In this document: positions 3,001-6,000 of the stretch, one piece after another | Layout: each line of letters begins with the position of its first letter | Numbering within the stretch: position 1 is the stretch's first letter | From: Candidatus Micrarchaeaceae archaeon | GTDB lineage: Archaea; Micrarchaeota; Micrarchaeia; Micrarchaeales; Micrarchaeaceae | Reading direction: 5' to 3' | Length of the DNA: 15,496 nucleotides | NCBI GenBank assembly: GCA_050013715.1 | Contig: JBEKES010000021.1 | Span: 1 to 15,496, forward strand | Program-made: the position numbers

Positions 3001-6000
3001 ACTTCAACTTGAAGAATCATATACTAAAAGAGTGGGTTCTAAATTTACTGACTCTGCAAAACAATTAGAATCTATAGATTATGTAACCGAAGCTTGCGGA
3101 ATACGTGATGCTTTACTCCAAATTTTTAAATAAGGCTATTAAACCTAAAAATAGCGGAAACTATATATACTTAAATTACCATAAATAATTAAGTGATTTC
3201 ATGATACCTATAATGCTTAAAAGTGCTTTTCCTTGTAAAAAGTTTCTAAGAATAGGGGAAGAAATTGTGGTAGGTGGAACTGTATTATATGTAGGAACAG
3301 AATACGTCAGGTCACACCCAATATTTGATCCAAAGAAAATAAGAAGAAACTAATTATAATCCATTAAGCATGTTTCTGTCCCTTAGTTTTCCTATGTCCA
3401 TTACGCTGTAGCGCCATACTATGTCTCCTCTTTCATCGGTTTGGACTACCCATGGCCTTACTATTACTACATCTCCTTCCTTTATCCAGAACTTTCTTCT
3501 AAGTCTTCCTGGAATTGAGCATAATCTTTCCTTTTCATCAACGCATTTTACAAAGAACTTTGTGGCTCCTGCTATTTTCACTACCTTTCCTAGTATTTCG
3601 CCTTCGTTCTGTCGTGGAAGCTTCAATGCACTCTCGACTGGCGAGCCCCTTCTTACGTCATAACCTGGTTTTCTCATTGCTATTCAATACACCTAATAAT
3701 TCTTTACCCAATACCTTGCACCGCAAGCTTCGCATATCAAGTACATTCCCTTCTCTGCGTTTTCCAGATGGGTGTCTGGCTTTTTGCATTCCTTACATAT
3801 AACATACATCTCAAAGTATTTCTTAACCCTTCTATCTATCTCTTCAGGAGGGAATTTTCCGTTTATGATGAGCCTTTGTTCCTCAATGTTAACAGGAACA
3901 GAGAATTCCTTGCCCAAATATCTTGCTATCTCTGTCGGGCTTCTTCTTGCTACATCTGCAATGTTAAGTATGTTTCTTATTATTGTTTTCGTTCCTTCGT
4001 TGAGGACATTTGCATTTGGTATTACGAAGTCTCCCTTATCTGCAGATAGGTTTGGCAGCTTCGAAAATGCTCTATCTAATAATTTTTGATATTCTTCTTC
4101 ACTCAATATTTTCACCATATAATATATGACGATTCTAATATATAAACAATTAGGGTTAGAAAAATTCTCTTTTTCAGTGAGATTTTGAGTAACCCTGAGT
4201 TACGAATACGTCACTAGATACTCCAACTTCAACACCTCCAAAGAATATATTATTTTTGGACGAGACAAAGTATTTTGGTTTTGTTTCAAGATATGTTCTG
4301 TCAAAATCAAATCTAGTTGCAAAAGCTGGCTCATGCTTTGCATTATAAGATTGATATTCGTATGCGTATATACTTTTACTAAGTGTGATACTAGTTGCAT
4401 TAATTTTAGGATAAACTAATTTGACAATTTGTGGTGAGATCTCTCTTAAGTCAAAATGATCATTTACCCACATTTCTCGGAATATGCTTGTGGAATAACC
4501 ATTTTTATCAGTTGTTGTCGAACCCACAAACATGCTTCCCCTAGCTTTTAAATGTTCTTTTGCAAAAGCTCCAGTATTCAAATCAACAGCCTTGATATCC
4601 AGCATGCCATTATTTATTTCCATTTCTAAATTAAAGTGATCTCCAATATTAGTTTTTCCATTAAAATTAAATGACGCAGCACCACCATGGCTCGGTTCTA
4701 TGCTGTTATGTTTATTATCCCAAACTTCATAGGCTAAATAAGTCTTATTATCATAAGTTGTATCTACAGAGGCCTGATACCAATAACCCTGCTCTGTCAA
4801 GCCATTTAGTACTATTTTGTTAACATCAAATTTTCCAGTCTGTCCTACAGTCTGGAAATTTGCCTCAATTTTATTAGTGTTTTTATCTATATATTCGATA
4901 AGTATTAAATTTTCAGTTGCAGTAAATCCAAATTCTCCTGCAAAAAGTGATTTATAAACTGCCAATGAACCTATCACTAAACTTGCCGAGAATACGAATT
5001 TAGAAAAAATCCGAGTAACACGCAATGTCGCAGCCTCCCTTTTTTGAAGTTCTTCTGCACGATATTTTAAACTGGGTTTGTCTTCTATCTGCTCTTCAGC
5101 TCTTTGCCTGACTGTTTTTTTAGCTATCGCTTTTCCCATTGGCTCACAAGATTAACCTATACAAGTTCCTTTTCTTTAATCAGATATAAAATACTGCTAG
5201 TCTACGACTAACCTACATGATAAATAATAGGTGCAAAAGCTGAAGAATCAGTCAAGATCCTTCATTATCCTGTCGTATTCCTTCTTGGAGATGTCTCCTT
5301 TTGCATACCTGTTCCTTGCTGTTATCCTTGAATTGTCGATCCACTCAAAGCCGTGCCTTGACCAGTGCAATCCTCTGCAGGAACAAAAGAAGCTGAAGAC
5401 CCAGCCTATGAATACGATAAGGAAGATTATTCCCATGAATGATAGTATGTAATCGCTGAAGTATATGCTTGATCTTGCAAACACTAATGATGCTATGAAT
5501 GAAGCGACTATCAGTATGAACATTGCACCCAAGACAATTCTCAATGTGTTGGAGCTGTGCCACTTGCAGCATCCGCAGGGGCAGCTGTCAGCGTTTTTAG
5601 AATCATGAAGGCTCTTTTTTCTAGGCATTGGTATCAACCTCTATAATAGATAAAAGCAAACAAGCCTTTTAATTCTATCTATAGGCATAGCATTTTATTT
5701 GTTTAAATTGCAATACATTTGGCAGTAAGGCGGGAAGCTAAGGGTTTCCCTTTTCGCAAATCCCTTTATGGCGAGCCAATGTTAGCCGAGTGTTATCGGA
5801 ACAATGCAAGCCTGCATTTTAAGACTATGAAATCTTGCCTTAGGTGATAGTCTGGTATGTGAACCAGGCCAGGCCGGAAGGAGCAACCTTAAACATATTT
5901 TGGCTATGCTCTTAAGATACAGGATCGAGTTGCGGTGCAGCAAACTTGCATTGAGCTGATGATGCAAGGCTAACTTCTGCCACTGATATATTCAATAATG

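What a model noticed while it worked through the whole genome (the two positions that open the first line are those of the whole stretch)
5719..5983. Signal recognition particle without SRP19: the SRP RNA has lost helix 6, the protein's docking hairpin, and the SRP19 ge [...]
The SRP RNA gene (C21:5719-5983, 265 nt; the ready table lists it as 'Bacteria_large_SRP') aligns end to end with the archaeal SRP RNA model. The Alu domain, helix 5 and helix 8 are in place, but the whole helix 6 hairpin (40 model positions) is missing with no residue in its place. Helix 6 is the main binding site of SRP19, and no SRP19 gene was found here or in any Micrarchaeota genome sampled. SRP54 (g00487) and FtsY (g00390) are kept. 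RNA hairpin and protein were thus lost together. That leaves a two-component SRP (RNA + SRP54), built like that of bacteria with a large SRP RNA, in an archaeon.
Evidence so far: cmscan: Archaea_SRP RF01857, model 1-317 of 317, 87.6 bits (below the gathering score of 96.5). 40 consensus positions between the 5' strand of helix 5 and helix 8 are skipped, with 0 residues inserted. The same holds in closed relatives: G032 263 nt (86 bits) and G061 266 nt (83 bits) have the same skip. In G019 (288 nt, 60.9 bits) the alignment prints helix 6 (18 pairs, GgAG loop) opposite gaps only. SRP19 (PF01922), six frames: 0 of 61 Micrarchaeota genomes >=92% complete at E <=0.01 (15 families); controls ring in 3 of 4 archaea. 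rna.tsv row: Bacteria_large_SRP 60.8 bits at C21:5722-5977.
(Added by a program. Inside this text positions count along the whole contig: contig position 1 is position 1 of the stretch shown here. "Call 12" and the like, gene names such as g00115 and contig names such as C1 are that model's own, and its searches are not shown. The text may have been shortened before it was handed on; [...] marks where a part breaks off. The agent that wrote the report below was given it as the finding of a first reader that could run no searches.)

Follow-up and report, generated by a model that had tools for sequence, protein, structure and literature searches.

The report
Archaeal SRP RNA without helix 6
This is the gene for the RNA core of a tiny archaeon's protein-targeting particle (SRP); it lacks the side arm (helix 6) and its genome lacks the arm's partner protein SRP19, as do the other small-genome (DPANN) archaea sampled, so the particle likely works in a pared-down, bacteria-like way.

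Summary
Window 5719-5983 is the SRP RNA gene; helix 5 runs straight into helix 8. All 145 Micrarchaeota RNAs read lack helix 6 and fold as a covarying rod. SRP19 was not found in 401 genomes (Pfam) or 301 (own profile; best 17 bits against 68 or more for true SRP19). SRP54 is in 151 of 151.

The trait is not phylum-specific: a sister phylum (29 of 29 RNAs) and Nanoarchaeota (42 of 42) also lack helix 6 and SRP19. Nine other archaea keep helix 6, and eight of them have SRP19.

SRP19's absence from all DPANN phyla and Hadarchaeota is already tabulated in a supplement (PMC13473441). Ten paper searches found no report of the missing helix. This scan has noted it at least eight times on other DNA.

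Specific to Micrarchaeota among the archaea read: a helix-8 tip one pair shorter (142 of 145) and a 1-2 residue insertion in SRP54's RNA-binding segment. Also seen: a new 3'-side hairpin (37 of 145) and predicted tRNA-type introns. Loss is likely; primitive absence is not excluded. No biochemistry. New variant; interest 0.6.

The parts
5719..5983 (+). SRP RNA gene, 265 nt, archaeal type without helix 6
   Evidence: RF01857 1-317, 87.6 bits; fold z -5.3; matching pieces in metatranscriptome contigs (weak)
5720..5725 (+). helix 1, 5' strand (pairs with 5977-5982)
5728..5778 (+). Alu domain (helices 2-4); the UGUNR motif is not kept
   Evidence: alignment; helices 3 and 4 covary in alignment A3
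5780..5852 (+). helix 5, 5' strand
5852..5853 (+). site where helix 6 sits in other archaea: 40 model positions, 0 residues
   Evidence: 5' end to SRP54 site is 151 nt here against 191-213 in eight helix-6 RNAs
5853..5901 (+). helix 8 (asymmetric loop, symmetric loop, tip)
5870..5885 (+). SRP54-binding symmetric loop (5870-5873 with 5882-5885), two-pair apical stem (5874-5875 with 5880-5881) and GGAA tetraloop (5876-5879)
   Evidence: canonical tip has three pairs
5902..5976 (+). helix 5, 3' strand, with the conserved GCU bulge
5977..5982 (+). helix 1, 3' strand

Best explanation
This is the genome's SRP RNA gene, archaeal in sequence, in which helix 5 continues directly into helix 8 with no helix 6, in a genome where no SRP19 gene is found; the particle likely consists of this RNA plus SRP54 and likely descends from a canonical archaeal SRP that lost both parts early in DPANN history. 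How it would work: (1) SRP54's M domain is predicted to bind helix 8 directly. The binding loops are intact (shown), and archaeal SRP54 binds without SRP19 in vitro (published). (2) With no helix 6 there is nothing for SRP19 to clamp against helix 8, so assembly would be one step, as in bacteria (inferred). (3) FtsY keeps the lysine that tethers E. coli FtsY to the tetraloop (shown by alignment), so the exposed GGAA loop would speed SRP54-FtsY docking (inferred). (4) The Alu domain and long helix 5 are kept and covary (shown), so the RNA would still reach from the exit tunnel to the factor-binding site (inferred). Later, in the Micrarchaeota ancestor, the helix-8 tip shortened by one pair and SRP54 gained 1-2 residues in its RNA-binding segment (distribution shown; a functional link is not supported).
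For: Helix 6 is absent in 145 of 145 Micrarchaeota RNAs read, 29 of 29 in a sister phylum and 42 of 42 measured in Nanoarchaeota. It is present in 9 of 9 other archaea. The rod has 60 of 67 pairs with two-sided changes, and 89% of cells pair against 38-47% when slid, including the helices on both sides of the junction. SRP19: 0 of 401 over the Pfam cut-off. With a 113-sequence archaeal profile the best score was 17.2 bits in 301 Micrarchaeota and 15.9 bits in 121 Nanoarchaeota; 0 of 31 in the sister phylum passed the Pfam cut-off. Held-out true SRP19 scored 68 bits or more. Controls: 8 of 9 helix-6 genomes and 19 of 21 relatives of G440 have it. SRP54's M domain is in 151 of 151. The gene after rps8e, where SRP19 lies in G404 and G405, is unrelated in Micrarchaeales. 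PMC13473441 Supplementary Data 25 gives arCOG01217 0% in all 12 DPANN columns, with presence probability 1 at the archaeal ancestor and 0.3 at the DPANN ancestor. SRP19 is dispensable in Haloferax and SRP54 binds without it (PMC2905702, PMC2568955). FtsY Lys399 equivalent kept (role from PMC4091067).
Against: No biochemistry or structure. Only three DPANN-type phyla were read, and kin are not independent. The ancestral reconstruction that favours loss was computed under an assumed Euryarchaeota root, so it is not independent of the root question. PMC7414124 leaves the root within or beside DPANN open. My SRP19 profile was seeded from one Thermoproteota protein and its search hits, so the held-out scores are biased towards detectable members; PF01922 misses Sulfolobus. 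No fold-level search of the proteome was done. Five of 151 genomes gave no RNA and one (G029) was not read. One Micrarchaeota RNA (G076) has a three-pair tip yet keeps the SRP54 insertion, and three bacteria with the short tip lack the insertion.
Confidence: 0.72

Rival explanations
1. Primitive absence: the RNA never had helix 6. Alu + helix 5 + helix 8 is the ancestral design shared with bacterial large SRP, and helix 6 with SRP19 was gained once on the line to the other archaea and eukaryotes.
For: The deletion is clean, with 0-3 residues left in the alignments seen, and uniform over three phyla. The window aligns over the whole bacterial large model. A root on or within DPANN is one of the standing hypotheses (PMC13473441 abstract; PMC7414124).
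Against: The 2026 analysis puts the root at or near Euryarchaeota with DPANN derived. Hadarchaeota lack SRP19 too, so the protein is lost at times. The RNA fits the archaeal model better than the bacterial one (87.6 against 60.8 bits).
Confidence: 0.13
2. Repeated parallel loss: genome reduction removed SRP19 and then helix 6 separately in several small-genome lineages, so the trait is convergent and no marker of shared ancestry.
For: SRP19 is dispensable in Haloferax and is absent from Hadarchaeota. DPANN genomes are reduced. Tips and loops differ among the phyla.
Against: No exception among 216 RNAs measured in three phyla; the same junction and near-identical arm lengths (medians 150, 154, 154 nt). 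All 12 DPANN columns are at 0% for SRP19. A 0.5-Mb bin related to G440 still has SRP19.
Confidence: 0.08
3. A hidden partner: a very divergent SRP19, or an unrelated protein, binds the S domain (perhaps the new hairpin 3' of helix 8), so the particle is not two-component.
For: Sequence searches cannot exclude it. 37 of 145 RNAs carry a new hairpin at the same junction on the opposite strand, some with GNRA loops. A conserved unknown gene follows rps8e in Micrarchaeales.
Against: The window's RNA and 108 of 145 have no such hairpin, and it varies in length and loop. The rps8e neighbour has no likeness to SRP19 (probability 0.2%). The best-scoring of the earlier Pfam weak hits under the own profile is Spt4/RpoE2.
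Confidence: 0.06
4. Transfer of a bacterial large SRP RNA, or an assembly or alignment artefact.
For: RF01854 passes its cut-off (60.8 against 60) while RF01857 does not.
Against: The archaeal model scores higher. The same form is in 145 genomes, several closed. An independent contig crosses the junction. SRP54 matches archaeal structures best (E 1e-106 against 1e-68 for bacterial).
Confidence: 0.01

Closest known systems
Canonical archaeal SRP: 7S RNA (Rfam RF01857) + SRP19 + SRP54 (M. jannaschii, A. fulgidus, P. furiosus, S. solfataricus; PMC2905702, PMC2568955)
   Same: Helix 1, Alu domain, long helix 5, helix 8 with SRP54 loops and GGAA tetraloop; archaeal SRP54 and FtsY.
   Different: No helix 6, so no helix 6-helix 8 adenosine clamp (said to 'likely exist in all archaea'); no SRP19; tip of helix 8 one pair shorter; UGUNR motif not kept; about 265 nt against about 310.
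Bacterial large SRP RNA (Rfam RF01854; Bacillus and Clostridium type) with Ffh
   Same: Layout of helix 1, Alu domain, helix 5 and helix 8 without helix 6 (the bacterial layout is recalled; the window aligns over model 1-256); no SRP19.
   Different: Sequence and SRP54 are archaeal; lower score (60.8 against 87.6 bits); resemblance is in layout, not shown to be by descent.
Haloferax volcanii SRP19 deletion strain (Yurist 2007, known from PMC2905702 and PMC6098224; the paper itself was not held)
   Same: A viable archaeal SRP without SRP19.
   Different: A laboratory deletion that keeps helix 6; here both are missing in nature across phyla.
Short-tip bacterial SRP RNAs of Truepera and Gemmata ('AA loop', PMC4091067)
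   Same: The same 16-nt short tip was found in a Trueperaceae, a Planctomycetota and a Treponema record, so the short tip is likely the published variant.
   Different: Scattered small bacterial RNAs there; near-fixed in a whole archaeal phylum here.
Permuted SRP RNA of Thermoproteus processed at a bulge-helix-bulge motif (PMC4731332)
   Same: tRNA-splicing motifs in SRP RNA genes; that paper predicted ancestors with simple BHB introns, which five relatives here appear to carry.
   Different: The window's gene is neither permuted nor split; Thermoproteus keeps helix 6 and SRP19.

Membership tests
Canonical archaeal SRP (RF01857 RNA + SRP19 + SRP54) | Helix 1, Alu domain (helices 2-4) and long helix 5 | tested here: met
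Canonical archaeal SRP (RF01857 RNA + SRP19 + SRP54) | Helix 8 with SRP54-binding loops and GNRA tetraloop | tested here: met
   apical stem has two pairs instead of three
Canonical archaeal SRP (RF01857 RNA + SRP19 + SRP54) | Helix 6 with GNAR tetraloop | tested here: not met
   40 positions against 0 residues; 145 of 145 relatives
Canonical archaeal SRP (RF01857 RNA + SRP19 + SRP54) | SRP19 gene | tested here: not met
Canonical archaeal SRP (RF01857 RNA + SRP19 + SRP54) | Archaeal SRP54 and FtsY | tested here: met
Canonical archaeal SRP (RF01857 RNA + SRP19 + SRP54) | UGUNR motif between helices 3 and 4 | tested here: not met
   alignment; deviations are known in other archaea
Canonical archaeal SRP (RF01857 RNA + SRP19 + SRP54) | Rfam gathering score 96.5 | tested here: not met
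   87.6 bits; 27 of 151 relatives pass it without helix 6
Bacterial large SRP RNA (RF01854) | Alu + helix 5 + helix 8 without helix 6; gathering score 60 | tested here: met
   60.8 bits, model 1-256
Bacterial large SRP RNA (RF01854) | Bacterial descent and partner Ffh | tested here: not met
   archaeal model scores 27 bits higher; SRP54 is archaeal
Two-component SRP (RNA + SRP54/Ffh only) | No other protein in the particle; RNA-catalysed SRP54-FtsY docking | not testable with these tools
   needs purification and kinetics

The most novel reading that the evidence does not exclude
The helix-6-less, SRP19-free particle is the primitive archaeal SRP, the same design as the bacterial large SRP. 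Helix 6 and SRP19 were then gained once, after DPANN split off, and mark all other archaea plus eukaryotes as one clade, which would place the archaeal root at DPANN.
Probability: 0.13. Interest if true: 0.85.

Novelty: new variant of a known kind. Interest (0 to 1): 0.6.

Why it matters
Reviews treat helix 6 and SRP19 as common to archaea and eukaryotes (PMC2905702, PMC2568955, PMC5807370). Three phyla of small archaea lack both, so the S domain can work as a plain rod in archaea. This gives a natural system to ask what helix 6 and SRP19 are for. A clean 40-nt deletion in an essential RNA is also a rare genomic change that bears on the disputed unity and position of DPANN and does not suffer from long-branch attraction. 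In practice these RNAs fall below the archaeal Rfam cut-off and can be filed as bacterial. The limits: the protein half is already in a published table, the particle's job is unchanged, and this scan has noted the RNA half before.

Tried and rejected
1. The 290-312 nt Micrarchaeota RNAs as helix-6 keepers: rejected. The extra length is a 3'-side hairpin, a tetraloop insertion or an Alu insertion.
2. Three long Nanoarchaeota RNAs (309-320 nt) as keepers: rejected. The insert lies inside the helix-8 5' strand with bulge-helix-bulge geometry, and these genomes have no SRP19.
3. A duplex-energy landmark to measure the junction (distances): failed, giving 78 nt for the window where the true value is 41. 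It was discarded and replaced by 5'-end distances; the tip counts stand.
4. Weak SRP19 hits (10, 7, 3 each): all 13-17 bits, mostly inside long or broken frames. Of the 13 rescored the best is Spt4/RpoE2; those were not examined one by one.
5. The gene after rps8e as a disguised SRP19: no Pfam match and no profile match; not folded.
6. G440 as a lineage with helix 6 but no SRP19: likely an incomplete bin, since 19 of its 20 relatives have SRP19.
7. Co-evolution of the short tip with the SRP54 insertion: not supported.
8. G402's phylum as Hadarchaeota: unlikely. Its SRP54 is sister to Micrarchaeota (99/95) and the named primase homologues are DPANN-type.
9. Expression: two metatranscriptome runs are contigs only. 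One covers much of the RNA in short pieces and the other none of it, so this is a weak hint at most.
10. Sigma-70 promoter and terminator scan: at chance level and unsuited to archaea. A TATA-like count had no background control and is not used.
11. No structure or complex prediction was run: the complex tool takes no RNA partner.

Full report
OBSERVATION. The window (G000:C21) holds one SRP RNA match: RF01857 at 5719-5983, model 1-317, 87.6 bits, with the 40 positions of helix 6 aligned to no residue. The bacterial large model scores 60.8 bits. The strand folds as one long rod plus the Alu hairpins, z -5.3. A contig from another DNA run spans 5404-5890 without a difference, so the junction at 5852/5853 is not an assembly error. 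The same alignment shows two single-base gaps flanking the tetraloop: the apical stem of helix 8 has two pairs instead of three.

THE PHYLUM. RF01857 matched 133 of 151 genomes drawn from the window's phylum. I read 132 of the 133 (G029, unpublished, was left out). A sequence-only model built from 44 of them found 13 of the 18 misses; five remain unfound. All 145 read lack helix 6. The distance from the 5' end to the SRP54 site is 146-168 nt in 130 of 131 measured (median 150); the outlier at 200 has an insertion in the Alu domain and still skips helix 6. G101 was read by eye. Twelve of the 13 late ones gave about 148-164 and the thirteenth was read by eye. Eight helix-6 RNAs give 191-213; a ninth is cut at its 5' end. 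RNAalifold on the 44 gives an unbranched helix 5-helix 8 axis, with 60 of 67 pairs showing two-sided changes and 89% of cells paired against 38-47% when partners are slid. That structure came from the same alignment, which favours it over the slid controls.

SRP19. PF01922 finds nothing in G000 at E<=10 and nothing over its cut-off in 401 genomes (10 weak hits, 13-17 bits). Because it misses Sulfolobus, I built an archaeal profile from 113 of the 150 listed relatives of one SRP19 (long sequences left out). Held-out members score 68 bits or more (median 99), and a divergent SRP19 from G404 scores 70. The best score is 12 bits in G000's six frames and 17.2 bits in 301 Micrarchaeota. SRP54's M domain is found in 151 of 151 and rps8e in 60 of 61, so incompleteness does not explain the blank. 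SRP19 follows rps8e in both control genomes examined. In Micrarchaeales that place holds an unrelated protein of about 120-160 residues, and in other orders assorted genes (none of the 30 neighbourhoods scored above 6.7 bits).

OUTSIDE THE PHYLUM. A motif scan of the genome collection, which stopped at 120 of about 3400 stretches, gave outgroups. Seven Nanoarchaeota-type records and one record of a separate small phylum lack helix 6, and none of these eight genomes has SRP19. Nine other archaea have helix 6 and eight have SRP19; the ninth is likely incomplete. In the small phylum (31 genomes) 29 RNAs were found and all 29 are helix-6-less, with no SRP19 over cut-off. It has a split primase, its SRP54 is sister to Micrarchaeota (99/95 in a 25-sequence single-gene tree), and the named primase homologues are Diapherotrites, Micrarchaeota and Altiarchaeota; I cannot name it. 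In Nanoarchaeota 114 of 121 genomes matched, and all but three full-length matches are 263-278 nt (two further matches are cut by contig ends). I measured 42 and all are helix-6-less (L370 was dropped for lack of an anchor). The three long ones carry intron-like inserts. The SRP19 profile found nothing above 15.9 bits in the 121. I had no handle on Altiarchaeota, Iainarchaeota, Undinarchaeota, Aenigmatarchaeota, Nanohaloarchaeota or Hadarchaeota.

WHAT IS SPECIAL TO MICRARCHAEOTA. The two-pair tip is in 142 of 145. Two more would have it after predicted splicing, and G076 has three positions. All 29 + 39 + 9 other archaeal tips scored have three positions (the scan motif allowed both lengths but selected for certain bases). 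The short tip carries compensatory changes. The RNA-binding segment of SRP54 is 1-2 residues longer in 45 of 45 scored Micrarchaeota plus G000, against 29 of 29 in the sister phylum, 7 other archaea and 5 bacteria (one locus unscored in each phylum). The two traits are not tied: G076 keeps the insertion, and three short-tip bacteria lack it. In 37 of 145 RNAs (families f1, f2, f6) a variable hairpin of about 14-60 nt is inserted 3' of helix 8, opposite the helix-6 site; the window has none.

MECHANISM. Shown: intact SRP54-binding loops and GGAA loop; no helix 6; archaeal SRP54 (best matches P. furiosus and M. jannaschii); FtsY with the residues that align to E. coli Lys399 and Arg402 (counted on chain 5gad_l). 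Published: SRP19 binds mainly helix 6 and clamps it to helix 8; archaeal SRP54 binds RNA without SRP19; Haloferax tolerates the deletion; the tetraloop-Lys399 tether speeds docking. Inferred: SRP54 binds the rod directly, the free tetraloop recruits FtsY as in bacteria, and the protein-free Alu domain contacts the ribosome. Most likely history: loss of SRP19, then of its now idle hairpin, at or near the DPANN ancestor. The order rests on Hadarchaeota lacking SRP19 (published table) while keeping helix 6 (earlier scan note e1-9850977, not tested here).

LITERATURE. Ten searches (seven aimed at this question) found no paper reporting a helix-6-less archaeal SRP RNA; subscription papers, such as the 2009 SRP RNA family review, are not held. 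What I saw: PMC2905702 (passages and section 4), PMC6098224 (passages), PMC4091067 (part 1 of 2), PMC10266531 (passages; SRP RNA noted, no comment on helix 6), PMC7203096 (passages; only the first 300,000 characters are held, and its SRP19 mentions lie beyond them), PMC13473441 (abstract, a term search of the text with no 'SRP', and supplement rows), bioRxiv 10.64898/2026.06.17.729505 (passages, no SRP; supplements closed), PMC7414124 (passages; three supplements held, with no SRP19; its large tables may not be among them), PMC8407392 (term search, none), PMC2568955 and PMC4731332 (passages), PMC5807370 (passages and section 12). Supplementary Data 25 of PMC13473441 lists SRP19 (arCOG01217) at 0% in all 12 DPANN columns and Hadarchaeota, and at 91-100% in the other seven groups. 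The protein half is thus in print as a table row. The scan itself has at least eight earlier notes of the RNA half on other genomes; these are not independent support. One search of the notes for the short tip found nothing.

VERDICT. Real, and against the textbook, but a variant of a universal machine with an unchanged job. It works like a bacterial large SRP and is a derived member of the archaeal lineage that fails two defining features of the canonical archaeal particle. Claims resting on tallies that include unpublished G029; none depends on it.

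Noticed in passing
L042 (G138) and L043 (G074), helix-8 tetraloop: A 43-nt insert in the GGAA loop with a 7-pair stem, 3-nt bulge, 4-pair helix and 3-nt bulge; standard cuts would restore the usual tip. 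Likely a tRNA-type intron. Splicing not shown.
   Followed up: partly
L362 (G489), L363 (G462), L364 (G534), Nanoarchaeota: Inserts of about 40-50 nt at a second site, inside the 5' side of the SRP54-binding loop, also with bulge-helix-bulge geometry; all three have a UGAC loop.
   Followed up: partly
37 of 145 Micrarchaeota RNAs (e.g. L010, L041, L054, L061, L367, L472): New variable hairpin between the 3' strands of helix 8 and helix 5, mirror to the helix-6 site; the shortest have GNRA loops; patchy in families f1, f2 and f6.
   Followed up: partly
G000 C11:14086-15402 and L393-L438: Micrarchaeota SRP54 has a 1-2 residue insertion in the RNA-binding segment of the M domain, absent from all other groups scored.
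   Followed up: yes
G000 C24:4907-5371 (-), L299-L321: Conserved 120-160 residue protein of no Pfam family between rps8e and, mostly, pyrB in Micrarchaeales, ending in a G-x-I/L-F-G motif.
   Followed up: partly
L263-L291 (phylum of G402): 12 of 29 RNAs have UGAC, UGGC or UGAU loops instead of GNRA on helix 8.
   Followed up: no
L058 (G017); L482 (G129): A 47-nt insertion in Alu helix 4; an insertion in the 3' strand of helix 5 with a GACA loop on helix 8.
   Followed up: no
L249, L200, L145: The same short helix-8 tip in a Trueperaceae, a Planctomycetota and a Treponema small SRP RNA.
   Followed up: partly
window 7264-8271 and 8297-9700 (+): Two adjacent proteins with HExxH motifs and no convincing Pfam family, just after the tRNA-Ser(GCU) at 7136-7218; possibly zinc proteases on an inserted element.
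   Followed up: no
window 552-977 (-) and 241-555 (-): RNase P Rpp30-like protein of only 141 residues matching the C-terminal half of the family, beside Pop5.
   Followed up: no
window 6037-6681 (+): J-domain protein with a TPR-like tail directly downstream of the SRP RNA gene; conservation of the linkage not checked.
   Followed up: no
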